Positions 31,189 through 60,342 of a stretch of 64,000 nucleotides of DNA are shown piece by piece (positions within the stretch are counted from its first letter, which is position 1; every line of letters begins with the position of its first letter). The stretch is from Planctomycetota bacterium (GTDB lineage Bacteria > Planctomycetota > UBA1135 > JADKAF01), in assembly GCA_016793245.1 (NCBI GenBank), contig JAEUHW010000057.1, forward strand, positions 112,709-176,708, given 5' to 3'. Made by a program: the position numbers and the translations under genes. The notes beneath the pieces were generated by a model that was not told where the DNA came from, ran no database searches, and saw only the letters and a program-made list of their open reading frames with translations.

Positions 31189-33060
31189 TCACGATCGCGG
31201 ACGCAGCGCGTAGAGGCGCAGCTCGGGACCGCCGATCTCGGCGCCGCGATGGGCGCTGCCTTGCGTGACCAACTCGACGCGCGGGAGATCGCGCCGCAGC
31301 TCGCCCCCGGGTTCGACCTTCCAGAGCAGCTCGTTGCGCTCGATCAGCGCGAGGAAGCGCCGCACCTCGGGATAGGTCGTGGGCTCGAGATCGTCGAGCA
31401 CGCCATCGACGAAGCCGCTCCAGAGATAGCGATCGAGGCCCATCAAGAGCAGCGCATCGTAGAGCGCCTCCGCGTTCGGCAGCGCGAAGCCGGCGACCTC
31501 GCCTGGCGCGCGCTGGAGCCCGAGGGCTTGGAGCTGCGGCAGCAGCTCGGTCACCCTCTCGTTGCCTCGCACCGCCGCGTAGCGAGCGAGGAACTCATCC
31601 CAGAGCACGAGGGAGCCTGGCTGCAAGGTGCTCGCGAGGTTCAGCTCGAGAGCTTGCTCGTCGAGGCGCGGGTACTCGGGGTTGTGCAGGAAGGCGAGCT
31701 CGCCCGCGCCGCGTCGCGCGCGCAGGGTGATCAGGCCGCCGCCGATCCCCCCGTTCTCGGCGAGTCTTCGTGCGCCTTCGAAGCGCGTGTCGCCGCGACC
31801 GACCGCGCGCGCCTGCTCGAGTCCGGGCCAGAGCGACGAAACGACGCAGGCGAGGACGAGCCCGGCCCCGAGCAGAAGTCCGAAGGGCGCGCGCACGCGA
31901 GAAGCGAGCGCCTGCGCGAGAGACGCGATCCCGATCGCGAAGAGCGGCGCGAGCACCAGGAAGTAGCGCGTGTAGCGAATGGCGTTGCCGCTCGCGACGG
32001 CGAAGAACGCGAGCGCGAAGAGCCCTAGCCCCACGGCTTCGCGAGGTCTCCGCACGGCGAGGAGCACGGTCCCCGCGAGCGCGGCCAGCAGGGCGAAGAG
32101 CGACCCCGCGACATGCGGAAGGCTCGTCGCCAGATGGAAGCTCCGCGGCGGCGCCGCATCCTCGAAGCCGAACCAGACCCAATCCCGGGCCTCGAAGTGC
32201 GTGCGCAGCCAGGCTACATAGGCTTCGTGATTCGCCAGCAGATCCGGCATCCCCACCAGCAGACCGACACCAAAGCCCAGGGCGATCGCGGCCGCGCCGC
32301 GCAGGGCGTGGGCGGCGCTACCCCAGCGCGCCCGTGGTCCGGAGCGCCCCTGCACGGCCCAGGCCCACGCGACCGCGAGCCCCGCGAGTCCGCCGAGGTA
32401 CTTCGAAGCGACGGCGAGCGCCGTGGCGCACCCTGCGGCGAAGGCGACCGCGGGGCGCTTCTCTTCCAACAAGCGCAGCGCCAGCCAGAGCGCCGCCGTG
32501 GTCCAGAGCACGTGCGGCATCTCGGTGACCATGTAGCGCGCGTACTGCAGGGCCAGCGGACTCGACGCGAAGAGGAGAGCCGCGGCAGCTGCGGGTACGG
32601 GAGCGAGCACGCGCGCCGCGAGGCGATAGGCGAGCCACACCGCGAGGAGCGCGAGGGCCCAGCACAGGCCGCGCGCCGCGAAGAGCAGCGTCGTCGGACC
32701 CGCGTACCAACCCACGCGCAGCTCGGCGTAGAGGTCCTGCAGCGACGGCATCAAGCCGAAGCTGCGGCCCGCGAACCACTCGGCGCGCAGCAAGTGATAG
32801 CTGTGCGGAGGCCAGTTCGCCTCGGGCGGGAACGGCGCGCGCAGCTCGAGCGCGAGCGCCGTCGCGACCACCTGGGTCTCATCGACGAAGGGATACGCGT
32901 TCCGCGCCCACCAGGCGCCGAGCGTCGGCGCGAAGAAGGCCGCGAGCAGGATCAGTCGCACCAGCCAGGTGCGCTCCGGCGCGCCCGCGGAGCCGCCACT
33001 CGAAGGCGGCAAGTCGGGATCGTGTGGTTGCACACGGTCGGGATCGGCGGAGAAGGGCAC
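31189..33060 (-). CDS. GT-C fold membrane glycosyltransferase (PMT_2/ArnT-like)
   Basis: Full track ORF with a GTG start. At least 10 hydrophobic segments, an acidic first-loop motif (YPFVDETQ), and a soluble C-terminal domain. The start is uncertain: it is only 20 bp from the divergent ORF start at 33081, and in-frame GTG/TTG codons lie downstream. Confidence 0.7.
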   Translation of the reverse strand: MPFSADPDRVQPHDPDLPPSSGGSAGAPERTWLVRLILLAAFFAPTLGAWWARNAYPFVDETQVVATALALELRAPFPPEANWPPHSYHLLRAEWFAGRSFGLMPSLQDLYAELRVGWYAGPTTLLFAARGLCWALALLAVWLAYRLAARVLAPVPAAAAALLFASSPLALQYARYMVTEMPHVLWTTAALWLALRLLEEKRPAVAFAAGCATALAVASKYLGGLAGLAVAWAWAVQGRSGPRARWGSAAHALRGAAAIALGFGVGLLVGMPDLLANHEAYVAWLRTHFEARDWVWFGFEDAAPPRSFHLATSLPHVAGSLFALLAALAGTVLLAVRRPREAVGLGLFALAFFAVASGNAIRYTRYFLVLAPLFAIGIASLAQALASRVRAPFGLLLGAGLVLACVVSSLWPGLEQARAVGRGDTRFEGARRLAENGGIGGGLITLRARRGAGELAFLHNPEYPRLDEQALELNLASTLQPGSLVLWDEFLARYAAVRGNERVTELLPQLQALGLQRAPGEVAGFALPNAEALYDALLLMGLDRYLWSGFVDGVLDDLEPTTYPEVRRFLALIERNELLWKVEPGGELRRDLPRVELVTQGSAHRGAEIGGPELRLYALRPRS

Positions 33061-33635: not shown

Positions 33636-35045
33636 ATGACGAAGCGCGTGCTGGTCCTCGGCGGGGGAATCACCGGACTCACCGCGGCGATGCGCGCGGC
33701 GGAAGCGGGGCTCGCGGTGGAGCTCTTCGAAGCCACCCAGCGCACCGGCGGCATGGGCGGGTCGATGAACGAGCAGGGCTTCGTGCTCGACCACGGGATC
33801 CACGGGCTCTATTCGGCGCGGAAGGAGACGCAGCCGCTCGTCCGCGAGATGGTCGAGCGCTTCGGAGCCGACTTCCTCACCATCCAGAAGAAGACCTCCA
33901 TCCACTTCCGCGGGCGCTACCTGAAGTACCCGATGGGCATGAAGGAGCTCTTCCGCGCGTTGCCGCTCCTCACCTCGGCGCGCTGCGTGCTCGACTTCGT
34001 GCGCACGCGCGTCCGCGGGCGCTTGAAGGACATCGGTGTCGCCGAGTCCTTCGAGCACTGGGTCTCCGATCGCTTCGGGCACAGCCTCTACGAGATCTAC
34101 TTCGGTCCCTACGTCGAGAAGGTCTGGGGGTTGCCGGGCACCCGCATGTCCAGCGCGTGGCTGGCGCGGCGCATCTCCCAGATCAGCATCGCCACCGTGG
34201 TGCGGCGGGCGCTGAACGCGATCTTCACGCGTCGCCCCCCGGACGAGATGCACTCGCTCCAGCCGCAGACCTTCCTCTATCCGCGCCTCGGCTCGGGGCA
34301 ATTCGTGGATCGGGTCCGCGACGCCGCGCTCGGCGCGGGAGCGGTGCTCCATCACGGCTGGAGAGTTCGCGGGCTGCGCTGGAGCGACAACCAGTGGAAC
34401 GTCGAGCTCGATACGCCCACGGGCCCGCAGCGGAAGACCGCGGACGCGATCGTGAACTCGCTGCCGCTCCCCGTGCTGATCTCCCTGCTCGGCGAAACCG
34501 CTCCGGCGCCCGTGCGCGAAGCTGCTTCGAGCCTGCGCTTCCGCGCCATGACGATCGTGAACCTCTTCCTCGAGCGCGAGCGCGTCTACGGCGACCAGTG
34601 GGTCTACTACTCGTCGCCCGAGCTCCCGTTCAATCGCATCAACGAGTTCACCAACCTCGCACCCGGCTACTCTCCGCCGGGGCGCACCGCCTTGAACTGC
34701 GAGATCACCTGCTTCACGGGCGACGCGACGTGGACCAGCAGCGATGAAGCCCTGGCGGAGCGCTGCATCGCCAGTTTGGAGCGGCTCGGCCTGATCCGCC
34801 GGGCAGAAGTCTCGGGGCACTCCGTGGCGCGCTTGCCCAACGCCTATCCGATCTTCGATGTCGGATGCGAATCGAGGCTCGAGACGGTGCTGCGCTTCGT
34901 GCGCGAACAGCCGGGGCTGCACACGGCCGGCCGCCAAGGCCGCTTCGAATACATCAACATGGACGAGTGCATCTGGCACGCGACCGAGGCCATCGCGGCG
35001 ATCCGCGCCGGGGCCTCGCGGACCCAAGAAGGAGCGAGCGCATGA
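33636..35045 (+). CDS. FAD-dependent oxidoreductase (amine-oxidase / UDP-galactopyranose-mutase-like fold)
   Basis: N-terminal dinucleotide-binding motif KRVLVLGGGITGLTAAMRAAEAGLAVELFE. The stop overlaps the next start (ATGA at 35042-35045). Confidence 0.8.
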   Translation: MTKRVLVLGGGITGLTAAMRAAEAGLAVELFEATQRTGGMGGSMNEQGFVLDHGIHGLYSARKETQPLVREMVERFGADFLTIQKKTSIHFRGRYLKYPMGMKELFRALPLLTSARCVLDFVRTRVRGRLKDIGVAESFEHWVSDRFGHSLYEIYFGPYVEKVWGLPGTRMSSAWLARRISQISIATVVRRALNAIFTRRPPDEMHSLQPQTFLYPRLGSGQFVDRVRDAALGAGAVLHHGWRVRGLRWSDNQWNVELDTPTGPQRKTADAIVNSLPLPVLISLLGETAPAPVREAASSLRFRAMTIVNLFLERERVYGDQWVYYSSPELPFNRINEFTNLAPGYSPPGRTALNCEITCFTGDATWTSSDEALAERCIASLERLGLIRRAEVSGHSVARLPNAYPIFDVGCESRLETVLRFVREQPGLHTAGRQGRFEYINMDECIWHATEAIAAIRAGASRTQEGASA

Positions 35046-36694
35046 TCCCGGTCTTCCGCCCTGCCATCGGCGACGAGGAGATTCGCGCCGTCACCGAAGT
35101 CATGCGCTCCGGCTGGATCGGGCTCGGCCCGAAGACCGCCGAGTTCGAGAAGCGCTTCGCGGAGTGGGTCGGCGCTAAGCACGCGATCGGCGCCGCCTCC
35201 GGAACCGCGGCGCTCCACCTCGCGTTGGCGGCGCTCCGCATCGGCCCTGGCGACGAAGTCCTCGTGCCGACGGTGACCTTCGTCTCGACGGCGCACGTGG
35301 TCGAGTACGTGGGCGCGAAGCCGGTCTTCGTCGACGTCCACGAGGACACGCTCTGCATGGACGTGGCCGACGCGGAGAGCAAGATCACCGAGCGCACGAA
35401 GGCGATCATGCCCGTGCACTACGGGGGACGCCCCTGCGATCTGGACCACATCCATCGCCTCTGCGAGAAGCACGGGCTCTACCTGGTCGAGGACGCCGCG
35501 CACGCCTGCGGTGCGCGCTGGCGCGATCGCTGGATCGGCGCGGATTCGCGTCCGTTCACGTGCTTCTCCTTCCACGCGGTGAAGAACCTCACCACGGGCG
35601 AAGGCGGCATGGTGACGACGGACGACGATGCCCTCGCGCGCGAGCTGCGCGAGCTGCGCTGGATGGGGATCACCAAGGACACCTGGGATCGCAGCACGAA
35701 CGCGCAGGTCTACGCCTGGCAGTACTGGGTGAAGTCGCTCGGATGGAAGGCGCACCTCTCGGACATCGCCGCGGCGATCGGCATCGTCCAGCTCTCCAAG
35801 CTGGAGCGCTTGAACGAGCGGCGCCGCGAGCTGATCGCGCGCTACGACGAGAAGCTGAAGGGCCTCGATTGGCTCCAGACCCCCTCGCCGGAGACGGGTC
35901 CGGGGAAGAGCTCCTGGCACATCTATCACGTGCGCACCGAGCGCCGCGACGAGCTGATCGCGCAGCTCAAGAAACACGACATCGCACCGGGTGTGCACTA
36001 CTACCCGGCGCATCTGCATCCCTACTACGCGTCGCGAGGCGATGCGCGTTGCCCGGTCGCCGAGCGGGTCTGGAAGAAGATCCTGACTCTGCCGCTCTTC
36101 CCCGACCTCACCGAGCAGCAGGTGGACGACATCTGCGCGGCCGTTCGCAGCTTCGCCTCCTACTTGGAGTGGAAGCGCTCGCGCCTGGAAGGGCACGGCG
36201 TCGTCCTGCGCGAGGTGGAGAGCACGGATCTCGACCGGCTGCGGAGCTGGCGCAACCATCCCGAGGGTCGGCGCTGGTTCTTCACGCATCAGGAGATCAG
36301 CGCGGACATGCAGCTCGCCTGGTTCAATCGCTACCTGCGGGCCGGCAACGAGCTGCTCTACGTGATCGAGACGCCCGAAGGGCTACCCGTCGGGACGATC
36401 GGTCTCTGCGGCATCGATCGCGAGCAAGGCACGGCCGAGCTGGGGCGCATGCTGATCGGCGAGTTCTCGGAGCGGCGGCGCGGCTGGGGACGCAAAGCCG
36501 TGCGCCTGCTCCTCGAGTACGCCTTCCGCACCGCCGGTCTCTCCCGCGTCTTCCTCGAGGTCCAGGAGGAGAACGAGGCCGCTCGCTCCCTCTACCGCGA
36601 GTGCGGCTTCGAAGAGGAGGGCGTCCTCCGCGCCTCCTACGTGGACGAGTCGGGACAGCGCCGCAACAAGGTGCTGATGGCCGCCTTGCGCTGA
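35042..36694 (+). CDS. DegT/DnrJ/EryC1-type sugar aminotransferase fused to a PseH-like GNAT N-acetyltransferase
   Basis: Starts at internal ATG 35042 of ORF 34865..36694. The aminotransferase part has GAASGTAALHLAL and FSFHAVKNLTTGEGG (PLP Lys). The C-terminal ~170 aa has VVLREVESTDLDRLRSWRNHPEGRRWFF...GWGRKAV...LYRECGFEEEG, a GNAT pattern. Confidence 0.85.
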   Translation: MIPVFRPAIGDEEIRAVTEVMRSGWIGLGPKTAEFEKRFAEWVGAKHAIGAASGTAALHLALAALRIGPGDEVLVPTVTFVSTAHVVEYVGAKPVFVDVHEDTLCMDVADAESKITERTKAIMPVHYGGRPCDLDHIHRLCEKHGLYLVEDAAHACGARWRDRWIGADSRPFTCFSFHAVKNLTTGEGGMVTTDDDALARELRELRWMGITKDTWDRSTNAQVYAWQYWVKSLGWKAHLSDIAAAIGIVQLSKLERLNERRRELIARYDEKLKGLDWLQTPSPETGPGKSSWHIYHVRTERRDELIAQLKKHDIAPGVHYYPAHLHPYYASRGDARCPVAERVWKKILTLPLFPDLTEQQVDDICAAVRSFASYLEWKRSRLEGHGVVLREVESTDLDRLRSWRNHPEGRRWFFTHQEISADMQLAWFNRYLRAGNELLYVIETPEGLPVGTIGLCGIDREQGTAELGRMLIGEFSERRRGWGRKAVRLLLEYAFRTAGLSRVFLEVQEENEAARSLYRECGFEEEGVLRASYVDESGQRRNKVLMAALR

Positions 36695-39390: not shown

Positions 39391-39447
39391 GCAGAGCTCC
39401 GAGCCCTCGACGGGTGCGACCCGTCGGTGGCTCGGAGCTCTGCATTT
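39391..39447 (+). terminator. strong intrinsic-terminator-like hairpin
   Basis: gcagagctccgagcc-ct-cgacgggt-gcg-acccgtcg-gt-ggctcggagctctgc forms 23 bp of stem with one 2x2 internal loop, followed by ATTT. It lies 62 nt after the stop at 39329. Confidence 0.6.
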
Positions 39448-39671
39448 GGGGCCTCGTCAGCGGCACCGGCTGCGCCGATCGATCGCCGAGGCAGAGCCAG
39501 TACGCCTGTGGCCAAGCCCGGGTCCGCCCCCCCGCATCGCGGCCCCTCGAGCTTCGAGCGCGCCGGGAGAACCCCGCAACCGGCTACGAAGTTGGCTCGA
39601 GCCCCGCGATCTCGTACCTTCTCGGGGCAAGGGCGTCGAAGGGTCGCGCCCCCGCCAAGAAGCGCAGCTCG

Positions 39672-40412
39672 ATGCGGAAACCCGAACATCGCCTGGAGAC
39701 GGAACGGCGCGCGCTGGAACGCGCGCTCTCGCGCCTCTCGAGCCTCCAAGTGGAACTCGCGTTCCACCGGGCGAGGGATCCCCTGGTGCGCTACCGCGCC
39801 TTTCGCAGCGGACGGTTGGAGCTGCGCATGCACGAGGCTCTGTCCAGCGCCCCGAGCGAAGTGCTGCACTCGCTGGTGGACTGGGTCCTGAAGCGCGGCG
39901 ATCGGGGCGAACGCCTGGATCGGCACCTCGATTCGCTCGCGGTGGAGCTGCGTCGCGACACGGCTCCACCGCCGATCCTCCTGCGCGGTGAAGTCCACGA
40001 TCTCGGCGAGATCAGTGGTGAAGTGCTGGAGCGGCACTTCACTCCGGGCCGCGCCCCGGCGCGCTCACCCCTCACTCTGCTCGCGCCGCGCCCTTCGTCC
40101 GCGATCACCTGGGGACCGCGCCGCACCGCTTCGGCGAAGGCGCGGAAGTCGATCCTCTTCGGGTCCTATGATCCCGTGCTCGACCTCGTGCGCGTGCATC
40201 CGCGCCTCGACCGCGGCGATGTGCCGAGGCGCTTCGTGGCCTTCGTGCTGTTCCACGAGCTGCTGCATGCGGCGATCCCGGCCCAGCGCGCGCCGAGCGG
40301 ACGCGTGGTTCATCACACGCCGACCTTTCGCCGCTACGAGCGCAACCACCCGGATTGGGAGTGGGCGGAGTCGTGGGAGCGCGAGAACATCCGCCGTTTG
40401 GCGAGCTCCTGA
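39672..40412 (+). CDS. SprT/DUF45-like HExxH metal-dependent hydrolase
   Basis: Starts at internal ATG 39672 of ORF 39414..40412. Motif FVAFVLFHELLHAAIP...HHTPTFRRYERNHPDW. Confidence 0.65.
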   Translation: MRKPEHRLETERRALERALSRLSSLQVELAFHRARDPLVRYRAFRSGRLELRMHEALSSAPSEVLHSLVDWVLKRGDRGERLDRHLDSLAVELRRDTAPPPILLRGEVHDLGEISGEVLERHFTPGRAPARSPLTLLAPRPSSAITWGPRRTASAKARKSILFGSYDPVLDLVRVHPRLDRGDVPRRFVAFVLFHELLHAAIPAQRAPSGRVVHHTPTFRRYERNHPDWEWAESWERENIRRLASS

Positions 40413-40443
40413 GCACCGCGCACTGCGGCTCCGGAGCTCCGGC

Positions 40444-41538
40444 TCAGGAGAGCTGCTCCCAGAACTCCTTCGGCATGTCGTGAGCGATCTTCAGCGCGCC
40501 GTTGGCTCCGCCGTACATCGGCTCCTCGGTGCGGATCACGCGCCCTCCACCTAGGCGAGTACGCATGTCTTGCTCAAGGGCGCGATCGAGCCCTTGGATC
40601 TGAGATCCGCCGCCCGCGAGCAGCACGCGGTTCCGCAGGCGATCCTGGAACTCCGGATCGAAGCTGCGCACGAGCGAGTGGATCGACTCCACCATCGGCG
40701 GGACGATCGACCGGCACGCCTTGCGCATGGCCTCCGTGATGTCGAAGGTCGTCGGCTTGCCGTCGACGGGCAGCTCCATCTCGATCCGATCCGCCGCATC
40801 ACCGACGAAGGAGTACTTCTCCTTCATGCGCTTCACCATGGGGCGCGAGAACGCAGCACCCGGGCACGCCTCGGCGAGATGGCGCTCGAGCTGCTCGTCG
40901 ATGTAGTCCCCTGCCGTGGGCAGCGTGATCTGGTCGCCCTCTTCCGGCATGGTGCCGTGCATGCGGCAGAGGTCGGTCGTTCCGGCGCCGATGTCGATCA
41001 CCAGCACGTCTTCGAGCCAATCCATGCCGTAGGCCACGGAGAAAGGCTGCGAGCAGAGCATCACCGCGTCCATCACTTCGCGGGCCGCTTCGATGATCGC
41101 CTTCTGATTGTGGATGCTGGCCTGCGCCGGTGCGCCGATCACGCCGTAGATCAGCTCGTCGGGGCGCGGCTGAGCCAAGCTCACGGCATGCCGAATGAGC
41201 GCGCGAGCCGCTTCCAAGTTCTCCTTGGCCTCGGGCGAGGTGAACTCGCCCTTCTCCGAGCCCTTGATGACCCCGCGCTCGAGCGGTCGGAACATCTTCA
41301 GCGAGAGCCGCTTCTCGAGTGCCTCTTCCCCGAAGAGGACATCACGCTTCAAGAGCTTCCGAGCCACATGGTCCTTCGGATAGCCGACGAGACTCGCGAC
41401 CGTGGCGCGCACGCCATTGGATGCGGAGATCGAGGTACGCGAAGTACCGAGGTCCACGCCGATGTAGAGCACCCCGTGCTCCTTCGACTTCTCCACGTTT
41501 GCTTCACCAGAGCCTGCCGGCCCTTGATTGCTGCCCAT
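40444..41538 (-). CDS. MamK-like bacterial actin (364 aa)
   Basis: Full track ORF. IGVDLGTSRT, LVGYPKD, VIGAPAQAS, SQPFSVAYG, VIDIGAGTTDLC, KEKYSFVG, LLAGGGSQIQGL and C-terminal PKEFWEQL are collinear with MamK as I recall it, and clearly closer to MamK than to MreB, FtsA or ParM. Confidence 0.85.
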   Translation of the reverse strand: MGSNQGPAGSGEANVEKSKEHGVLYIGVDLGTSRTSISASNGVRATVASLVGYPKDHVARKLLKRDVLFGEEALEKRLSLKMFRPLERGVIKGSEKGEFTSPEAKENLEAARALIRHAVSLAQPRPDELIYGVIGAPAQASIHNQKAIIEAAREVMDAVMLCSQPFSVAYGMDWLEDVLVIDIGAGTTDLCRMHGTMPEEGDQITLPTAGDYIDEQLERHLAEACPGAAFSRPMVKRMKEKYSFVGDAADRIEMELPVDGKPTTFDITEAMRKACRSIVPPMVESIHSLVRSFDPEFQDRLRNRVLLAGGGSQIQGLDRALEQDMRTRLGGGRVIRTEEPMYGGANGALKIAHDMPKEFWEQLS

Positions 41539-41554
41539 CTCGATCGCTCCTGGC

Positions 41555-42346
41555 CTACTCGGCCCCCTTCTGGATCTTCAGGTTGGCCTGGAAGATCACG
41601 TCCATCAAACCCTGCTTCTTCTTGAACTGCCCTGAGCTCTGGTCGAGCCCCTGGACACCTCGGTAGATCGAGGCGATGCCCGGCTCGACCTGGGCTCCCG
41701 ACAGGGTGCGGCTCAACTCGTCCTCGGCCTGCGCGAGGCGACTCTTGAGCTTCGCCATGCGGCGCTCGAGCTGCGCGATCTGCTCCCCTGCCGCGGGATC
41801 GACCTCGCGCACGACCTCGCGTTGGCGCTCCACGTAGCCGGAGACGAAGGCGATCAAGCGCGCGCTCAAGCGCTCGCTCTTCGCTCGATCCGCCTCGCCC
41901 AGAGCCTCGCTCACCAGGCGCTGCAGCCCCTGGTTCAGATCCTCGGGAGAAGCACCCATGGCGCCCGCGCGCACATCGCGCTGCGCCATCTCGAGCTCTT
42001 GGCCCGCGCGCTGCAATTCGAGCCGGAGCTCATCCACCCGGCGCTGGGAGAGCGCTGCTTCCTGCATCGTGCGCTCGCGCACGTGGGTGAGTTCGCGCAC
42101 TTCGCGCGTCAGCCGATCGAGCTCCTCGCGCGCCTCGGCGACGATGAACTCGCGCTCGCGCTCTTCGAGCTCGATGCGCCGAGACTCGATCACTCGATCG
42201 ACGGCGTCCTCGACGAGGCGCGCGATCTGATCCATGCCGATCACGCGCACCTTGCCGACACCGGCGCTCTTCAGCTTGTCGACCGAGGTCGTGCGGAAGA
42301 ACGCTGCGAGCTCGCCCCAGAGCGAGCGCCGATCCGCTCCGCTCAC
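41555..42346 (-). CDS. coiled-coil protein (263 aa)
   Basis: GTG 42346 overlaps the upstream stop (GTGA). Long Glu/Arg/Leu heptad-like stretches (ELEEREREFIVAEAREELDRLTREVRELTH..., QIAQLERRMAKLKSRLAQAEDEL). Confidence 0.7.
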   Translation of the reverse strand: MSGADRRSLWGELAAFFRTTSVDKLKSAGVGKVRVIGMDQIARLVEDAVDRVIESRRIELEEREREFIVAEAREELDRLTREVRELTHVRERTMQEAALSQRRVDELRLELQRAGQELEMAQRDVRAGAMGASPEDLNQGLQRLVSEALGEADRAKSERLSARLIAFVSGYVERQREVVREVDPAAGEQIAQLERRMAKLKSRLAQAEDELSRTLSGAQVEPGIASIYRGVQGLDQSSGQFKKKQGLMDVIFQANLKIQKGAE

Positions 42347-43104
42347 GCCCCGGATCCCGCCAGGTAGGAGCCTTGGTAGCCGACGCGGCGTCGTTCGGCC
42401 CGCGCTCCGACGAGGAAGATCCCGAGCAGATTCGCGCCGACGTTGCGGATCATCTCGATGGCGCGCTCCACGTCGCGCCGCGGCGTGTACTCCAGTCGCA
42501 CGACGAGCAACACGCCGTCGACGGCATGCGCCAGCACCGTCGCATCCGTGAGGTCCAGCACGGGCGGCGCGTCGATCAAGACGTAGTTGAAGTTCTCCTT
42601 CAAGGCGCTGATCAACACCGCGGCGCGGTCGGCAGCCACGAGCTCGGCGGGGTTGCTCGGAGTGGCTCCGGCTCCGATCAGGCTCAGATTGGGATGCGGA
42701 GTGCGCTGGATCGCGCGATCGGGCGCGTAACGCCCCGAGAGCACGTCCGCGAGTCCGCGACGGCGCTCCAGGCCGAGGAGCCGCTCCAAGGACGGGCGGC
42801 GGAGATCCGCGTCGAGCGCGATGACGCGCGTGTCGCGGAGCTCCCCCAACGCCATGCCCAGGTTCAAGCTGGTGATGCTCTTGCCCTCGCCGGCCATCGC
42901 CGAGGTTAGGACGACGCTGCGCGGCGCGCGCTCGCGGTTCATCGCCACGATCTGATTGCGCAGGCCGCGGTACTGCTCCGCCTCCTGGCTGTGGGGATCG
43001 TGGAACATCACGAGATGCGGATCCACGGCCTGATCGACGACGACCACGACGTCGTGGCCCTCGGGCTCGGCAGCAGCTTCGGCTTCGCGTCGGAAGAGGC
43101 CCAT
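42343..43104 (-). CDS. CpsD/CapB-type BY-kinase-like (MinD/ParA superfamily) ATPase, cytoplasmic module only
   Basis: PHSQEAEQYRGLRNQIV, Walker A TSAMAGEGKS, A' VIALDADLRRP, Walker B YVLIDAPPV, and a short C-terminal Tyr pair (VGYQGSYLAG). No transmembrane activator domain is present. Confidence 0.85.
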   Translation of the reverse strand: MGLFRREAEAAAEPEGHDVVVVVDQAVDPHLVMFHDPHSQEAEQYRGLRNQIVAMNRERAPRSVVLTSAMAGEGKSITSLNLGMALGELRDTRVIALDADLRRPSLERLLGLERRRGLADVLSGRYAPDRAIQRTPHPNLSLIGAGATPSNPAELVAADRAAVLISALKENFNYVLIDAPPVLDLTDATVLAHAVDGVLLVVRLEYTPRRDVERAIEMIRNVGANLLGIFLVGARAERRRVGYQGSYLAGSGA

Positions 43105-43303
43105 CGGGTGAGAGCTACGAGAACACAGGGAGCGAGGAAGGGAGTTCCAGCGGGACTATCGGCGCGCCATCCGCAGACTCCGTAGCTCATGCGGATGCGG
43201 AGGAAGGTCCCGCGCGATCGACAGAGTCCTCTGGCGCGGCGCAGCGGACGCGCAGGGGCGAGGCCTCGTGAGTTTGCGCCGTTTCCCGCCCCTTGGCGAA
43301 GCT

Positions 43304-45037
43304 TCAGCGACCGCCGCCTCCCTCGTAGGGATCCAAGTCGCGCAGCCGAGGTGGCGGAACGGGATCCACTCCCTCCGAGCGCAGCAATTGATCGCCGACG
43401 AGGATCCAGCCCATGCGATGCGCGAACGCCGCTGCGGACGCCTTCAGCCCCGGCTCGGAGAGACGCTGCGCCGCGAGCGCGCGAAACACGAGAGCACGCG
43501 GACCTTCGTGCACTCGCCGCTCGGGATCCACGCGCGCGAAGCTCACCGCGAGGCGATCGCCGATGGCGCTCGCCGAGGGATCGAGCGCCGCGCGACGGAG
43601 GAGCCCGGTCAACGCGCCGGAGACGCGCTCGAGCTCCGCCGATCGGAGATCCAGCTCCAGAGCGAGCTCTGCCAGCTCGGGCGCGGCTTCGACCGCCGAA
43701 CGCAACGCCGCGAAGTCATCTCGCGCCGAAAGCGCCGGCAAGCCGCGTTCCTCCAGAGACTCGAGCGCCAGCTCGCGGAGACGCGCGTCGGAGGGCTCTC
43801 GTCGCAGGGCGGGAAGCACCTCCCAACCCGCAACCTCGGCCCCGGCGCGCCGCAGACAGCGCGCGGCGAAGACGGCGTCGTCCGCGGCGCCATCTCGCAG
43901 AGCTGCGCGGAGCTGCGCTTCGCTGGCTTCGGGGCGCATCCAGGCGAGCAGGCGCCAGGCGAGCCTTCCGCGCTCGGTCGTCTCCTTCGAGATCGCGACG
44001 AGCCGCTCGCGCACCAGCGAACCGAGCGGCGCCTGGAGGCACCGACGCCACAGCGCTCGGAAGCGCAGGCGTAGCTCCGCAGACGGCGCCAGATCCGCGG
44101 GGAGATAGAGCTCGAGAGCCTCGACCTTCAGCGGAGACTCCAGGCCTCTCGGACCGGCGACGAGCAGGGTCGCGAGCAGCTCGGGTGCGGCCCCACTGCG
44201 GAGCGCCCGCATCTCGCACCAGTCATGCCAGCCGGGGATCCCCAGCGTCCCCAGAGCTTCGAACGCCGCGCGCCGTCGCGCGGCATCGTCGCTCGCCGCG
44301 CCGGCCAAGAGACCCTCCGCGAGATCTACGGGCGCCGGCCGATTCTGCGCATCGCTCGCCTGGATCCAGAGCGCTCCGGGAAAGGGCACCACGCGGAGCG
44401 AACAGGCGGCGGCGGCGTCCCGGAGCATCTGATCCCCACGCAGCCCACGACCTGCCGAGGACAGGACGGGGGGAAGAGTCGCCTGCCCCAGCGAAGCCGC
44501 CTCGGGATCGACGACCAGGGGCAACTTCGCTCCGCCGAGCTGTGCCAGATCGCGCGCCAGATCGACGAGAGAGCGCGCTTCCGTCGGCGCCCAGAGCTCG
44601 GGCGGGAACTGGGCGATCAGAGGTCGCAGGTCTTCCTGGATCTGCGTGCCGCCGGCGATCGTGTCGCTGACGAACTCGAGCGCTCGGTCACGAGCGGCCC
44701 GTGAGTCGTGGACCAGCCACGCCTCGTAGACCCAGGGGATCAAGTCCGCGCGAGCGTTGCACAGGCGAAGCCAGAACCCGTCGGCGGTCTCGCCGACTCG
44801 AAGCATGCCAGCGCTCTGCCGGAGCATGGGCTCGAGCTGTTGGGCGTCGAGCGCGCCGAGCAACTCGTGCAGCGCCGCGTCGCGTTCCTTGGCGTTGGGT
44901 GCGGCCGTCGCGGCGCGAAGCAGCGTCTCCGCGCGCTCCGCCGAAAGTCCGGCGGGAACCTGCGCCTCGCCTCGAGACCCGAGGAGCGCCAGGGCGGATA
45001 GGAACCAGCGCGAAGGGCGCGACAACGCTCGGGCCAT
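43304..45037 (-). CDS. hypothetical secreted helical-repeat protein (577 aa)
   Basis: Full track ORF. Signal peptide MARALSRPSRWFLSALALLGSRGEAQ. Ala/Leu/Arg-rich, helix-rich sequence with no recognised motif. Confidence 0.65.
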   Translation of the reverse strand: MARALSRPSRWFLSALALLGSRGEAQVPAGLSAERAETLLRAATAAPNAKERDAALHELLGALDAQQLEPMLRQSAGMLRVGETADGFWLRLCNARADLIPWVYEAWLVHDSRAARDRALEFVSDTIAGGTQIQEDLRPLIAQFPPELWAPTEARSLVDLARDLAQLGGAKLPLVVDPEAASLGQATLPPVLSSAGRGLRGDQMLRDAAAACSLRVVPFPGALWIQASDAQNRPAPVDLAEGLLAGAASDDAARRRAAFEALGTLGIPGWHDWCEMRALRSGAAPELLATLLVAGPRGLESPLKVEALELYLPADLAPSAELRLRFRALWRRCLQAPLGSLVRERLVAISKETTERGRLAWRLLAWMRPEASEAQLRAALRDGAADDAVFAARCLRRAGAEVAGWEVLPALRREPSDARLRELALESLEERGLPALSARDDFAALRSAVEAAPELAELALELDLRSAELERVSGALTGLLRRAALDPSASAIGDRLAVSFARVDPERRVHEGPRALVFRALAAQRLSEPGLKASAAAFAHRMGWILVGDQLLRSEGVDPVPPPRLRDLDPYEGGGGR

Positions 45038-58869: not shown

Positions 58870-60342
58870 ATGATCCGGATCTTCCGCTACTACATCTCCT
58901 ACCGCATGGTCCTGCTGGTGGTCTCCGAGACCATCTTGCTGGCCCTCGCGGTGATGCTCGGCACTTCGGCGCATCTCCTGTTCGCCGAGGCCGGAGCACG
59001 TCTGGCCGGAGACGTGCGGAACGCCGTGACTAGCTCGCTCTTCATCGCCCTGCTCTGCCAGGTCGCGATGGGCTTCAACGAGCTCTACGAATGGCGCGTC
59101 TCGACGAACCCGCGCGAGCGCTCGTGGAAGCTCGCGGTCGCCTGCGGCGCGTCGCTGATCTCGCTCGCCGGACTGATCGGGATCCTGCGCCTGCTCGGCT
59201 GGGAGGAGCTGCTCGGCTTCGCTCCCGTGAGCGGCACCTGGAGCCTCACCGAGCGCGTGATCCTCTCCATCGCCGCCGGCTTCGCGCTGCTCTGGCCGTA
59301 TCGCTGGCTCTTCCATTGGCTCGTCGTCCGCTGGAAGTTCGGCGAGCGCCTGTTGATCCTCGGCGGCGGAGCGCAGGCGCAGGAGATCGCGCAAGCGCTC
59401 ATGGATCGCCCCGACTCGGGCTATGAGTTCCTCTCGCTGGTCTACCCCGCGCCGCCCTACGTGCCGTTCGACGGCTCTCCGGCCGCCGCACCCGGCACCG
59501 CGATCCTGCCCGCAGTCTTCGCCGATGTCGGCGAGCTCTACGACATGGCGATGCTGCTGCGCGTGAACCGCGTCGTGATCGCGATGGAGGACCGCCGTGG
59601 AAACCTCCCCACGGGCGAGCTCCTGAAGATCCGCATGGCCGGAGTGAAGATCGAGGAGCGCGAGGAGCTCTACGAGCGCATCACCGGCAAGATCTCGGTG
59701 TCGAGCCTGCGACCGTCCTATCTCATCTTCTCGCGCGGCTTCGAGCGCAGCCGCCTCACCTTCGCCAGCAAGCGCTTCCTCGACATCGCGGTCGCGTCCG
59801 TGGGCCTCGTGCTCGCGCTGCCGGTGATGCTCATCACGGCGCTCGCGGTGAAGCTGGATTCGCGCGGCCCGATCTTCTTCCGCCAGGAGCGCTGCGGTAA
59901 GGACGGGCGACCGTTCGCGCTCTACAAGTTCCGCTCGATGCGCGTCGATGCCGAGCTGACCTCGGGCCCGGTCTGGGCGCGCACCGGGGATTCGCGCGTG
60001 ACGCGCATCGGCCGGTTCATCCGGCGGACGCGCATCGACGAGATCCCGCAGATGTACAACGTCCTGCGCGGCGACATGTCCTTCGTCGGTCCGCGCCCGG
60101 AACGCCCGTTCTTCGTGCGCGAGCTCGCCGAGGCGATCCCCTACTACAAGCAGCGCCTCACGGTGAAGCCCGGGATCACCGGCTGGGCGCAGATCTGCTA
60201 TCCCTACGGATCTTCGGTCGAGGACGCGGTCCAGAAGCTCCAGTACGATCTCTACTACATCAAGAACCTCTCGATCCTCTTCGACCTTTCGATCATCATG
60301 CGCACGATCAAGGTCGTGGTCCTGCGGAAGGGCGCCGTCTGA
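58870..60342 (+). CDS. polyprenyl-phosphate glycosyl-1-phosphate transferase (WbaP/EpsB-type initiating sugar transferase)
   Basis: N-terminal MIRIFRYYISY and 4-5 TM helices, typical of EpsB-type proteins. Catalytic C-terminus: KRFLDI, PIFFRQERCGKDGRPFALYKFRSM, DEIPQ, GDMSFVGPRPE. Confidence 0.9.
   Translation: MIRIFRYYISYRMVLLVVSETILLALAVMLGTSAHLLFAEAGARLAGDVRNAVTSSLFIALLCQVAMGFNELYEWRVSTNPRERSWKLAVACGASLISLAGLIGILRLLGWEELLGFAPVSGTWSLTERVILSIAAGFALLWPYRWLFHWLVVRWKFGERLLILGGGAQAQEIAQALMDRPDSGYEFLSLVYPAPPYVPFDGSPAAAPGTAILPAVFADVGELYDMAMLLRVNRVVIAMEDRRGNLPTGELLKIRMAGVKIEEREELYERITGKISVSSLRPSYLIFSRGFERSRLTFASKRFLDIAVASVGLVLALPVMLITALAVKLDSRGPIFFRQERCGKDGRPFALYKFRSMRVDAELTSGPVWARTGDSRVTRIGRFIRRTRIDEIPQMYNVLRGDMSFVGPRPERPFFVRELAEAIPYYKQRLTVKPGITGWAQICYPYGSSVEDAVQKLQYDLYYIKNLSILFDLSIIMRTIKVVVLRKGAV

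What the first reader, a model, noticed from the sequence alone, without database searches (positions are those of the whole stretch)
40444..43104. MamK-like actin in an operon with a coiled-coil protein and a BY-kinase/MinD-type ATPase, outside any magnetosome context
The 364-aa actin-fold protein is collinear with the magnetosome actin MamK (sequence recalled from memory). It shares LVGYPKD, VIGAPAQAS, SQPFSVAYG, VIDIGAGTTDLC, KEKYSFVG, LLAGGGSQIQGL and C-terminal PKEFWEQL (MamK has PPQYWRQL). It is clearly less like MreB, FtsA or ParM. No other magnetosome gene is in the window.

Instead it is the last gene of a three-gene unit. A cytoplasmic CpsD/CapB-type ATPase (Walker A/A'/B and a short Tyr tail, but no membrane activator domain) overlaps by GTGA a 263-aa coiled-coil protein, and the actin follows 16 bp later. 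A SIMIBI-class ATPase, a coiled-coil adaptor and an actin filament together look like a positioning or scaffolding system for some cellular structure. The cargo could be a polysaccharide-export machine, given the BY-kinase ancestry and the EpsB-type transferase at 58.9 kb. I do not know this triad as a described system.
Basis: partly seen in the sequence, partly recalled or inferred. Interest (0 to 1): 0.8.

Follow-up and report, generated by a model that had tools for sequence, protein, structure and literature searches.

The report
MamK-like actin with conserved adaptor
A planctomycete operon encodes a MamK-related actin (already named 'saltatorellin') that is always paired with an upstream protein ending in an undescribed 75-residue module, joined here by a soluble tyrosine-kinase-type ATPase; the unit is conserved, has no tested function and shows no link to magnetosomes.

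Summary
Three tightly packed minus-strand genes encode a BY-kinase-fold ATPase (42343-43104), a 263-aa coiled-coil protein (41555-42346) and a 364-aa actin (40444-41538).

The actin itself is not new. It is 66% identical to 'saltatorellin' of Saltatorellus ferox, which forms filaments in heterologous hosts (bioRxiv 10.1101/817700). Saltatorellin-type actins form their own Planctomycetota clade (99/100 bootstraps), sister to genuine magnetosome MamK (100/100). The window has no mam genes.

The context appears undescribed in the literature I could search.
- 51 of 80 genome loci carry the same ATPase, coiled-coil, actin order.
- The constant partner is only the last ~75 residues of the upstream protein (…LERRIAKL…GIASIYRxVQGL…KxxLMxxIFxANLxLQK). 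It sits directly upstream of the actin in 78 of 79 assessable loci, and degenerate in the 79th.
- The same module ends 654 protein clusters with varied N-termini, including degenerate GGDEF domains and, in two loci, the ATPase fused directly.

My inference is a modular filament-docking adaptor that recruits a nucleotide-switch ATPase. Binding is untested. The proposed polysaccharide-export cargo is unsupported, and the ATPase lacks a tyrosine cluster.

The parts
42343..43104 (-). Soluble BY-kinase-fold P-loop ATPase (253 aa), named 'CpsD/CapB family tyrosine-protein kinase' (MBL8896813.1) in NCBI
   Evidence: TIGR01007 scores 137.2 bits against a cutoff of 108. Nearest solved structures are BceF, CapB, VpsO, Etk and Wzc at 1e-30 to 1e-21, with MinD only at 1e-13. 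Walker A, A' and B are conserved in 52 orthologues, but the tail has a single conserved Tyr (RLAY) and no cluster.
42343..42346 (-). GTGA stop/start overlap between the ATPase and the adaptor gene (translational coupling)
   Evidence: Sequence read. In most orthologous loci the ATPase stop and the adaptor start overlap by 4 nt or are at most ~7 nt apart; larger values in that table come from over-extended ORF starts.
41555..42346 (-). 263-aa all-helical coiled-coil adaptor, annotated as a hypothetical protein (MBL8896812.1)
   Evidence: No Pfam or NCBIfam family. The AF2 model is all helices, pLDDT 76.5. No PDB fold match at E<=1e-3. A full-length orthologue lies between ATPase and actin in 51 loci. 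Public name.
42182..42289 (-). Conserved N-terminal motif of the adaptor (residues ~20-55, TSVDKLKSAGVGKVRVIGMDQIARLVEDAVDRVI)
   Evidence: Conserved columns in alignment A2. Also present in adaptors that have no adjacent ATPase. Its role is unknown.
41561..41785 (-). C-terminal ~75-aa module of the adaptor (residues ~188-262), the constant partner element of saltatorellin-type actins and the inferred filament-docking domain
   Evidence: Profile-HMM hit in the window at 5.6e-28. Present directly upstream of the actin in 78 of 79 assessable loci, with a degenerate copy in L079. Found in 654 representative clusters, almost always at the extreme C-terminus. Near-invariant polar residues are R195, R196, K199, E208, G223, S226, Y228, Q232, G233, K244 and N255. 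No Pfam family.
41539..41554 (-). 16-nt spacer with an AGGAG ribosome-binding site before the actin start
   Evidence: Sequence read. In most orthologous loci the spacer is about 15-100 nt.
40444..41538 (-). Saltatorellin-type (MamK-sister) actin, 364 aa
   Evidence: NCBIfam MamK scores 418.5 bits against a cutoff of 400. MamK PDB hit at 3e-80. AF2 pLDDT is 91.4 and the best fold match is the MamK filament subunit 5ljv_A, TM 0.94 and 1.9 A. 66% identical to the cloned S. ferox saltatorellin gene at L075:5947-7029. Clade support is 99/100.

Best explanation
This is a chromosomal cytoskeletal module found almost only in Planctomycetota. It is not a magnetosome component.

Shown or well supported:
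- The last gene encodes a saltatorellin-type actin. This clade is sister to magnetosome MamK, and its S. ferox member forms filaments in E. coli and Magnetospirillum (shown by others).
- The gene directly upstream always encodes a protein ending in a conserved ~75-residue module: a helix with LERRIAKL, a loop reading GIASIYRxVQGL, and a terminal helix reading KxxLMxxIFxANLxLQK.

Inferred:
- The module is the element that docks its carrier onto the actin filament or monomer.
- The variable N-terminal part decides what is brought to the filament.
- In the window's sub-clade the carrier is a dimer-prone coiled coil. A translationally coupled, soluble BY-kinase-fold ATPase binds it and acts as a nucleotide-dependent switch. 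The switch could work by ATP-driven oligomerisation, by phosphorylation of its single conserved tail tyrosine, or both.
- The switch would control adaptor clustering, and through it filament nucleation, bundling or anchoring.

The cargo or cellular process is unknown. Shape change or division in these FtsZ-less bacteria is the leading guess.
For: Actin identity:
- MamK HMM above cutoff, MamK in the PDB at 3e-80, and fold TM 0.94 to the MamK filament subunit.
- Separate clade at 99/100 bootstraps, sister to a monophyletic magnetotactic MamK clade at 100/100.
- 66% identity to the exact gene cloned by Wiegand et al., confirmed by primer matches.

Pairing with the module:
- A tblastn hit to the module lies within 400 nt upstream of the actin in 76 of 80 loci, whatever the rest of the upstream protein looks like.
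- A profile HMM raises this to 78 of 79 assessable loci, and the last one (L079) has a degenerate copy.
- 654 representative clusters carry it C-terminally on different N-termini. GGDEF is on 19 of 113.
- Invariant polar residues argue for a specific interface.
- The most conserved loop is the only low-confidence stretch outside the N-terminus in the monomer model, as expected for a fold-on-binding motif.

ATPase-adaptor link:
- 51 of 80 loci have the same order, with overlaps or gaps of a few nucleotides.
- Two loci fuse the ATPase domain directly to the module in one ORF (L027:4728-5870 and L036:4769-5872).
- There is precedent for soluble BY-kinases using cytosolic scaffolds or activators: MinD and SalA for PtkA (PMC4205851 and PMC5035731).
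Against: - No interaction was tested.
- The module could instead bind membrane, DNA or another protein, or could mediate oligomerisation.
- Strict adjacency proves co-inheritance and probably co-expression, not binding.
- The fused ATPase variants have lost the Walker A lysine (AGTT, AGTS). At least there, catalysis is dispensable and the domain may be purely structural.
- Four loci have a full-length adaptor without an adjacent ATPase.
- The tail has one conserved Tyr, not a cluster, so tyrosine autokinase activity is uncertain.
- No conserved cargo gene was found.
Confidence: 0.55

Rival explanations
1. The C-terminal module does not bind actin. It is a membrane-targeting or self-assembly element, like the C-terminal amphipathic helices of MinD and FtsA. 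The adaptor would tether something to the membrane, or form its own scaffold, and be co-expressed with the actin.
For: The last helix (residues 241-262) is amphipathic and flanked by lysines. C-terminal amphipathic helices are the classic membrane anchors of MinD and FtsA (general knowledge). The module begins with a heptad-like helix that could dimerise.
Against: Membrane-targeting helices conserve amphipathicity, not sequence. Here polar residues (K244, N255, Q232, S226, R195, R196) are 97-100% invariant across 113 representatives taken from 50%-identity clusters. The calculated hydrophobic moment is modest at 0.82, with mean hydropathy -0.41. The module's near-exclusive position directly upstream of one specific actin clade is better explained by a direct partnership. 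The two readings can coexist, with the loop binding actin and the helix binding membrane.
Confidence: 0.2
2. One reading: the triad positions or regulates a polysaccharide synthesis and export machine, with the ATPase acting as a genuine BY-kinase of the Wzc/CapB type.
For: The ATPase passes the BY-kinase domain model, and its nearest solved structures are BceF, CapB, VpsO and Wzc. The window contains glycan-related genes: a DegT-GNAT aminotransferase at 34865-36694, a PMT-type glycosyltransferase at 31189-33060 and Bac_transf at 58870-60342.
Against: No Wza, Wzx, Wzy or PCP gene and no membrane activator lies adjacent. None of the glycan genes is co-conserved with the triad in other loci. The defining C-terminal Tyr cluster is absent. 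The same actin-plus-module pair occurs with GGDEF-like or short partners and no ATPase at all.
Confidence: 0.08
3. It is a type II (ParMRC/Alp-like) DNA-segregation cassette, with the actin as motor and the upstream protein as the centromere-binding adaptor.
For: An actin gene paired with one small adaptor gene is the architecture of ParM/ParR and AlfA/AlfB (general knowledge). ParR contacts ParM through its C-terminal helix (general knowledge).
Against: The adaptor has no detectable DNA-binding domain. There are no iteron or centromere-like repeat arrays around the operon. The locus is chromosomal among housekeeping genes. The actin is MamK-clade, not ParM/Alp. Adaptor N-termini include GGDEF-like and ATPase domains.
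Confidence: 0.05
4. It is an ordinary MamK paralogue belonging to a magnetosome gene island elsewhere in the genome.
For: The NCBIfam MamK subfamily model is passed, at 418.5 bits against a cutoff of 400. Magnetosome clusters have been reported in a few Planctomycetota MAGs (PMC7602337, listed; not read here).
Against: The actin falls in a separate clade with 99/100 support, outside all sampled magnetotactic MamKs. The family is very large, with more than 3,385 90%-identity clusters, almost all Planctomycetota. It includes cultured S. ferox, which its description does not report as magnetotactic. No mam gene lies in the window or among the gene clusters that recur in the 80 loci.
Confidence: 0.03

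Closest known systems
Saltatorellin, the MamK-like actin of Saltatorellus ferox Poly30 (Wiegand et al. 2019, bioRxiv 10.1101/817700)
   Same: Same protein family: 66% identity and the same clade at 99/100 bootstraps. Same phylum. Also preceded by a gene carrying the C-terminal module (L075:5485-5715).
   Different: In S. ferox the upstream partner is a short protein with an N-terminal RGGNVVHRIDL motif, and there is no adjacent ATPase. The preprint does not discuss gene neighbourhood. The window's actin has Gln instead of the catalytic Glu.
MamK, the magnetosome actin (PDB 5ljv, 5ljw, 5jyg), with its partners MamJ and MamY or the coiled-coil Mad proteins (PMC12748827)
   Same: Closest characterised actin: 39-40% identity, TM 0.94, collinear including the C-terminal xxxYWxQL helix. 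Conceptually similar in that an actin filament works with coiled-coil partner proteins.
   Different: Separate sister clade. No magnetosome genes nearby. The partner module was not matched to any Pfam or NCBIfam family. Homology to Mad, MamJ or MamY was not tested directly.
BeeR, the three-stranded tubular actin of Verrucomicrobiota (PMC11929497, PDB 8r2n)
   Same: Another MamK-related actin of the PVC group in non-magnetotactic bacteria with unknown function. Detectable similarity: 199 bits on NCBIfam BeeR and 8e-39 in the PDB.
   Different: BeeR falls outside the saltatorellin+MamK group, and the score is far below the BeeR cutoff of 530. The window's actin has only about 20 disordered N-terminal residues, fewer than BeeR's 30-50 residue extension.
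Firmicute-type BY-kinases (CapB, PtkA) with separate modulators, including the cytosolic modulators MinD and SalA
   Same: A soluble catalytic domain with Walker A, A' and B, encoded next to a separate partner protein. There is precedent for cytosolic scaffolds or activators of such kinases.
   Different: No transmembrane modulator and no polysaccharide locus. The Tyr cluster is reduced to one conserved Tyr. The partner is a coiled-coil protein tied to an actin.
ParM/ParR and other actin-plus-adaptor pairs
   Same: The logic is the same: one actin gene plus one adaptor gene, with the adaptor's C-terminal end as the likely contact (general knowledge).
   Different: No DNA-binding domain and no centromere repeats, a chromosomal housekeeping context, and a different actin clade.

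Membership tests
MamK (magnetosome actin) | Sequence passes the curated family model (NCBIfam NF040964) | tested here: met
   418.5 bits against a cutoff of 400. This is narrowly above the cutoff.
MamK (magnetosome actin) | Falls inside the clade of MamKs from magnetotactic bacteria | tested here: not met
   NJ tree of 53 sequences over 344 columns. Saltatorellin-type actins are monophyletic at 99/100, magnetotactic MamKs at 100/100, and the two are sisters at 75/100. Mean identity between the clades is 40%, against 55% within MamK.
MamK (magnetosome actin) | Encoded within a magnetosome gene cluster (mam, mms or mad neighbours) | tested here: not met
   No Mam family among 25 window proteins scanned, and none among the gene clusters recurring in 80 related loci. 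The rest of the genome was not searchable.
MamK (magnetosome actin) | MamK-like actin fold and nucleotide-binding motifs | tested here: met
   AF2 pLDDT 91.4. Match to 5ljv_A with TM 0.94 and rmsd 1.9 A. DxGT, DxGxGTxD and GGGS are present. The catalytic Glu143 equivalent is Gln164.
Saltatorellin (Wiegand et al. 2019) | Orthology to the S. ferox Poly30 gene that was cloned and shown to form filaments | tested here: met
   The published primers match L075:5947 and L075:7029 exactly. 66% identity over 345 aa. Same clade at 99/100.
Saltatorellin (Wiegand et al. 2019) | Forms filaments | not testable with these tools
   Reported for the S. ferox orthologue in E. coli and M. gryphiswaldense. Not tested for this protein.
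BeeR | Passes the NCBIfam BeeR equivalog model and has the 30-50 residue disordered N-terminal extension | tested here: not met
   199 bits against a cutoff of 530. BeeR lies outside the clade in the tree.
MreB/Mbl | Passes MreB family models and falls in the MreB clade | tested here: not met
   NCBIfam MreB models score 57.5 and 46.2 bits against cutoffs of 293 and 366. Identity to T. maritima MreB is 29%. Only the generic Pfam MreB_Mbl model is passed, at 63 bits.
BY-kinase (Wzc, CapB, PtkA) | Walker A, A' and B motifs and the catalytic-domain model | tested here: met
   TIGR01007 scores 137.2 bits against a cutoff of 108. The motifs are conserved in 52 orthologues. The nearest PDB entries are BY-kinases.
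BY-kinase (Wzc, CapB, PtkA) | C-terminal tyrosine cluster as the autophosphorylation site | tested here: not met
   The window tail has 2 Tyr. 41 of 52 orthologues have exactly one Tyr in the last 20 residues (consensus RLAY[ED]), 8 have two, 1 has three and 2 have none.
BY-kinase (Wzc, CapB, PtkA) | Transmembrane activator (PCP domain or CapA/TkmA-type partner) and linkage to polysaccharide export genes | tested here: not met
   The ATPase is 253 aa and matches only catalytic-domain models, with no match to a PCP or membrane domain. The neighbours are the coiled-coil protein and an unrelated 577-aa protein. No export genes are co-conserved.
BY-kinase (Wzc, CapB, PtkA) | Tyrosine autokinase activity | not testable with these tools
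   Requires an in vitro phosphorylation assay.
MinD/ParA (deviant Walker A ATPases) | Passes the MinD or ParA models and has the signature lysine of the deviant Walker A (KGGxxK[ST]) | tested here: not met
   MinD scores 68.9 bits against a cutoff of 212.9, and ParA 20.8 against 180. The P-loop reads SAMAGEGKS with no signature Lys.
ParMRC-type partition cassette | Adaptor with a DNA-binding fold and a centromere repeat array | tested here: not met
   No DNA-binding family hit. Only short chance repeats were found, inside coding sequence.
WH2 actin-binding motif (for the adaptor's terminal helix) | Match to Pfam WH2 (PF02205) | tested here: not met
   No WH2 hit even at E<=10 for five module sequences. 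The resemblance came from memory only.

The most novel reading that the evidence does not exclude
Planctomycetota of the Saltatorellus lineage may possess a modular actin-adaptor system that has not been described. A portable ~75-residue C-terminal docking domain, present in at least 654 protein clusters, would recruit different nucleotide-switch proteins to a MamK-sister actin cytoskeleton. Those proteins include a soluble BY-kinase-type ATPase via a coiled coil, degenerate GGDEF domains and degenerate P-loop domains. In bacteria that lack FtsZ and can change shape, this would be a regulated actin network with dedicated actin-binding proteins, analogous in logic to eukaryotic actin-binding-domain families. 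It could underlie division or shape change.
Probability: 0.35. Interest if true: 0.78.

Novelty: new variant of a known kind. Interest (0 to 1): 0.58.

Why it matters
Bacterial actins are understood through their partners: ParR for ParM, RodZ for MreB, MamJ and MamY for MamK. Saltatorellin was proposed to drive the amoeba-like shape changes of Saltatorellus, but no partner or regulator has been named.

This analysis supplies concrete candidates.
- A C-terminal module sits directly upstream of the actin in 78 of 79 assessable loci, with a degenerate copy in the last.
- The same module ends hundreds of other proteins.
- In the largest sub-clade a tyrosine-kinase-type ATPase is coupled to it.

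That turns a vague idea into testable experiments: module-actin binding, ATPase-adaptor binding and Tyr phosphorylation. It also bears on how FtsZ-less Planctomycetota organise and divide their cells. For annotation, 'CpsD/CapB tyrosine kinase' and 'MamK' or 'rod shape-determining protein' are misleading labels for these genes.

Tried and rejected
1. WH2 idea. The adaptor's last helix (KKxLMxxIFQANLxLQK) reminded me of WH2 (LLxxIxxGxxLKKV). A Pfam scan of five module sequences at E<=10 gave no WH2 or other actin-binding hit, so I dropped it.
No complex prediction was possible.
3. A fold search with the adaptor model returned only generic coiled coils (SMC, Vipp1, chemoreceptors), none at E<=1e-3.
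4. Pfam and NCBIfam on the adaptor gave nothing except a sub-threshold GAS coiled-coil hit.
5. Sigma-70 promoter and intrinsic-terminator scans over 40200-43400 found no sites. This is uninformative for a planctomycete.
6. A search for centromere-like repeats found only short chance repeats within coding sequence.
7. A search for a fourth co-conserved gene found HAD hydrolase, a secretin-like protein, ExbD x2 and ExbB recurring downstream on the opposite strand. They occur in only 18-36 loci of one sub-clade and not in the window, so this is lineage synteny and not part of the unit.
8. My first guess that the conserved ~75-aa piece was the adaptor's N-terminus was wrong. Query coordinates show it is the C-terminus.


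Full report
**1. What is in the sequence.**

Three minus-strand ORFs occupy 40444-43104:
- a 253-aa ATPase at 42343-43104;
- a 263-aa protein at 41555-42346;
- a 364-aa actin-fold protein at 40444-41538.

All three have the codon-position GC signature of real genes in this ~70% GC DNA, with GC3 of 0.84-0.87. The ATPase stop and the next start overlap as GTGA. The actin ATG follows a 16-nt spacer containing AGGAG. Consensus sigma-70 and terminator scans found nothing, which says little for a planctomycete.

**2. The actin.**

The best family match is NCBIfam 'MamK family actin-like protein', at 418.5 bits against a cutoff of 400. It is far ahead of BeeR (199 against 530), MreB (57 against 293) and FtsA. 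Against solved structures, MamK scores E 3e-80, BeeR 8e-39 and T. maritima MreB 5e-15. An AlphaFold model built from 45 homologues is confident (pLDDT 91.4). Its best PDB match is the MamK filament subunit 5ljv_A (TM 0.94 normalised to MamK, rmsd 1.9 A, 39% identity), then BeeR and MreB at about 0.80.

The database search returned more than 3,385 relatives at 90% clustering. Where named, almost all are Planctomycetota, annotated either 'rod shape-determining protein' or 'MamK family actin-like protein'. A scan of one genome per species gave 183 confirmed loci, of which 80 were kept. One is the cultured Saltatorellus ferox Poly30 (L075).

**3. It is the published 'saltatorellin'.**

Wiegand et al. 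(bioRxiv 10.1101/817700) described a MamK-like actin in Saltatorellus and named it saltatorellin. They showed that an mCherry fusion of the Poly30 gene forms filaments in E. coli and in a Magnetospirillum mamK mutant. Their cloning primers match L075 exactly at 5947 and 7029, so L075:5947-7029 is that gene. The window's actin is 66% identical to it.

I built a bootstrapped NJ tree from 33 saltatorellin-type sequences, 18 MamKs from magnetotactic Alpha-, Gamma- and Deltaproteobacteria, Magnetococcales and Nitrospinota, plus BeeR and MreB.
- The saltatorellin group is monophyletic in 99/100 replicates.
- The magnetotactic MamKs are monophyletic in 100/100.
- The two are sisters in 75/100, with BeeR outside.
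- Mean identities are 70% within saltatorellins, 55% within MamK and 40% between them.

So the actin passes the MamK sequence model narrowly but is not a member of the magnetosome clade.

**4. No magnetosome context.**

Pfam and NCBIfam scans of 25 window proteins show only housekeeping and envelope genes:
- a DegT aminotransferase-GNAT fusion;
- a PMT-type glycosyltransferase;
- a CarboxypepD_reg repeat protein;
- a Crp regulator, pyruvate kinase and HEAT-repeat proteins;
- HU, MnmA, YajC, a Bac_transf sugar transferase and SerA.

I could not scan the rest of the genome. However, the family's size, its presence in S. ferox, which its description does not report as magnetotactic, and the absence of mam genes from all recurrent neighbour clusters make the 'paralogue of a hidden magnetosome island' reading very unlikely.

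**5. Is the triad conserved?**

Yes, in the largest sub-clade. tblastn of the three proteins against the 80 loci finds ATPase, full-length coiled-coil protein and actin, in that order on one strand, in 51 loci. In most of these loci the ATPase/adaptor junction is a 4-nt overlap or a gap of at most ~7 nt (larger values in that table come from over-extended ORF starts), and the adaptor/actin spacers are mostly about 15-100 nt.

Flanking genes are not conserved with the triad. The exceptions are the near-identical relative L001 and some lineage synteny on the far side: HAD hydrolase, a secretin-like protein, ExbD x2 and ExbB in 18-36 loci, none of them in the window.

**6. The real constant: a C-terminal module.**

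In the remaining loci only residues ~189-260 of the window's coiled-coil protein are matched, always just upstream of the actin. The upstream proteins fall into classes.

| Class | Upstream arrangement | Loci |
|---|---|---|
| A | Separate ATPase plus a ~263-aa coiled coil | 51 of 80, including the window's close relative L001 |
| B | ATPase domain fused directly to the module in one ORF | L027:4728-5870, L036:4769-5872 |
| C | ~350-aa proteins with a degenerate GGDEF domain, a coiled coil and the module | L054, L057, L062, L069-L074 |
| D | ~160-aa proteins with an N-terminal RGGNVVHRIDL motif and the module | S. ferox L075, L055, L076, L039 |
| E | Coiled coil without an adjacent ATPase | L048, L063, L065, L077, L080 |

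A profile HMM of the module hits directly upstream of the actin in 78 of 80 loci. L068 has only 33 nt of upstream sequence. L079 has a divergent class-D partner that retains the terminal helix. Five loci, S. ferox among them, carry a second module-bearing gene 3-7 kb downstream. These context classes track sub-clades of the actin tree.

An exhaustive phmmer search of 1.84 billion representatives with the 81-residue module found 654 clusters at E<=1e-3. The module is nearly always at the extreme C-terminus of proteins 84-507 aa long. Pfam recognises no family for it, and the commonest co-domain is GGDEF, in 19 of 113 members.

Conservation is striking for representatives drawn from 50%-identity clusters. 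R195, R196, K199, E208, G223, S226, Y228, Q232, G233, L234, K244, F252 and N255 are 89-100% conserved.

**7. The adaptor's structure.**

AlphaFold with 52 homologues predicts an all-helical protein, pLDDT 76.5. The long helices are 62-130, 134-149, 154-179 and 184-217, followed by the terminal helix 241-262. The most conserved stretch (219-232, GIASIYRGVQGL) is the only low-confidence stretch outside the N-terminus, with pLDDT below 50. That is typical of a motif that orders on binding a partner. Foldseek against the PDB gave only generic coiled coils and nothing at E<=1e-3. NCBI annotates the exact protein as hypothetical (MBL8896812.1).

**8. The ATPase.**

It passes the BY-kinase catalytic-domain model TIGR01007, at 137 bits against a cutoff of 108. 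NCBI names it 'CpsD/CapB family tyrosine-protein kinase'. The nearest solved structures are BceF, CapB, VpsO, Etk and Wzc at 1e-30 to 1e-21, with MinD and FleN at 1e-13 or weaker. Walker A, A' and B are conserved in 52 orthologues.

Two defining BY-kinase features fail.
- There is no tyrosine cluster. The family consensus tail is RGxDPxSDxRLAY[ED] with a single Tyr, and the window has two.
- There is no membrane activator or polysaccharide-export linkage.

It also lacks the MinD/ParA signature lysine. In the two natural fusions the Walker A lysine is lost (AGTT, AGTS). Soluble BY-kinases are known to use cytosolic partners: MinD scaffolds and modulates B. subtilis PtkA, and SalA activates it (PMC4205851 and PMC5035731).

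**9. How it most likely works.**

Shown:
- the gene order, coupling and conservation;
- the actin's clade and fold;
- the ubiquity and modularity of the C-terminal module;
- the ATPase's fold class;
- filament formation by the S. ferox orthologue (by others).

Inferred:
- The module is the docking element that attaches its carrier to saltatorellin. The basis is invariable adjacency, portability across unrelated N-termini, invariant polar residues and disorder in isolation.
- The ATPase binds the adaptor. The basis is translational coupling and the Rosetta-stone fusions.
- The ATPase is a nucleotide or phospho-tyrosine switch that governs adaptor oligomerisation, and through it filament nucleation, bundling or anchoring.

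The process served is unknown. Wiegand et al. speculated on shape-shifting and pseudopodium-like extension. A role in division of these FtsZ-less cells is equally open.

**10. Rivals.**

- The module could be a membrane-targeting or self-assembly element, since it ends in an amphipathic helix. The invariant polar positions argue for a protein interface, and the two readings are compatible.
- The polysaccharide-export cargo proposal lacks any neighbourhood support.
- A ParMRC-like partition cassette is disfavoured: there is no DNA-binding domain and no repeat array, and the locus sits among chromosomal housekeeping genes.
- An ordinary MamK paralogue is disfavoured by phylogeny and distribution.

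**11. Novelty.**

The actin is known from a 2019 preprint, which one later paper in the searchable library cites. MamK-related actins of unknown function in the PVC group have a structural precedent in BeeR. I found no description of three things in the searchable literature:
- the conserved ATPase, adaptor, actin operon;
- the C-terminal module as the universal genomic partner of this actin clade;
- the coupling of a BY-kinase-fold ATPase to a bacterial actin.

The library is incomplete, so prior description elsewhere cannot be excluded. I classify the finding as a new variant of a known kind, namely a bacterial actin plus an adaptor.

**12. Verdict.**

Interest is moderate to high. It is more informative than a bare triad, because the comparative data single out a specific, testable candidate actin-binding module and a candidate regulator.

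Noticed in passing
window 41047-41049 (actin residue Gln164): The residue aligned with MamK's catalytic Glu143 (SEPF) is Gln (SQPF) in the window, L001, P0001 and P0002 only. 191 other saltatorellin-type sequences and the 84 MamKs scored by the motif search keep Glu. Eukaryotic actin has Gln137 at this position (from memory). This may mean slower ATP hydrolysis and more stable filaments in this sub-lineage.
   Followed up: partly
L054:4259-5407, L057:4830-5873, L069-L074; P0133, P0135: In many genomes the protein directly upstream of the actin is a ~350-aa GGDEF-family domain whose GG[DE]EF active-site motif is degenerate (for example LVQDG or MYNDR). A coiled coil and the C-terminal module follow it. 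It could be a c-di-GMP or GTP sensor docked to the actin.
   Followed up: partly
L027:4728-5870 and L036:4769-5872: These are natural fusions of the BY-kinase-like domain to the C-terminal module. Both have lost the Walker A lysine (SAEARAGTT, SAEPRAGTS) and have altered Walker A' residues. The domain is probably catalytically dead there.
   Followed up: partly
L075 ~5200-5739 (S. ferox), L055, L076, L039, L079; P0134: Short (~160 aa) partners share a second conserved motif near the N-terminus, F(K/R)SPxRGGN(V/I)VHR(I/L)(D/E)L. Its function is unknown and it has no family assignment.
   Followed up: no
L038:9090-9326, L064:12827-13045, L075:12824-13021, L076:12806-13009, L078:9170-9400: Genomes of the S. 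ferox sub-clade carry a second module-bearing gene 3-7 kb downstream of the actin on the same strand; it is GGDEF-like in L038, L064 and L078, the copies whose ORFs were read. One actin may therefore serve several adaptors.
   Followed up: partly
window 43304-45037 (-): A 577-aa ORF lies upstream of the ATPase and starts with what looks like a signal peptide (read by eye, no prediction run). It has no Pfam or NCBIfam hit. It is only 58% identical in the close relative L001, where neighbouring genes are 83-94% identical, so it is evolving fast. It is not conserved with the triad elsewhere.
   Followed up: no
window 39414-40412 (+): A convergent 332-aa ORF with an HExxH-type motif (FVLFHELLHA) and no family hit. 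It recurs close to the actin gene in L001 and L049, and ~3.7 kb downstream of it in L002, so it may be an uncharacterised metallopeptidase.
   Followed up: no
L003:8325-12195, L004:7158-12983 and ~30 other class-A loci: Recurrent convergent genes lie downstream of the actin in one sub-clade: a HAD hydrolase, an 850-930-aa secretin-like protein, two ExbD and one ExbB/TolQ-like gene (identified by eye from motifs, not scanned). They are absent from the window.
   Followed up: partly
window 40444-41538: The exact 364-aa actin translation is not in the 15-billion-protein collection, although the two upstream proteins are (MBL8896812.1 and MBL8896813.1). The public record probably uses a different start codon or lacks the call.
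   Followed up: no
window 41224-41265 (actin residues ~92-105): Relative to MamK, the actin has two small insertions totalling 9 residues (GSEKGEFTSPEAKEN region). The AF2 model shows this region as a loop (residues 84-101) running into the start of helix 102-120. It might alter inter-strand or partner contacts.
   Followed up: no
window 40420-40453: A 34-nt imperfect palindrome overlaps the actin stop codon (40444-40446) and extends into the 31-nt gap before the convergent ORF. It may be a bidirectional terminator hairpin, but it has no T-tract.
   Followed up: no
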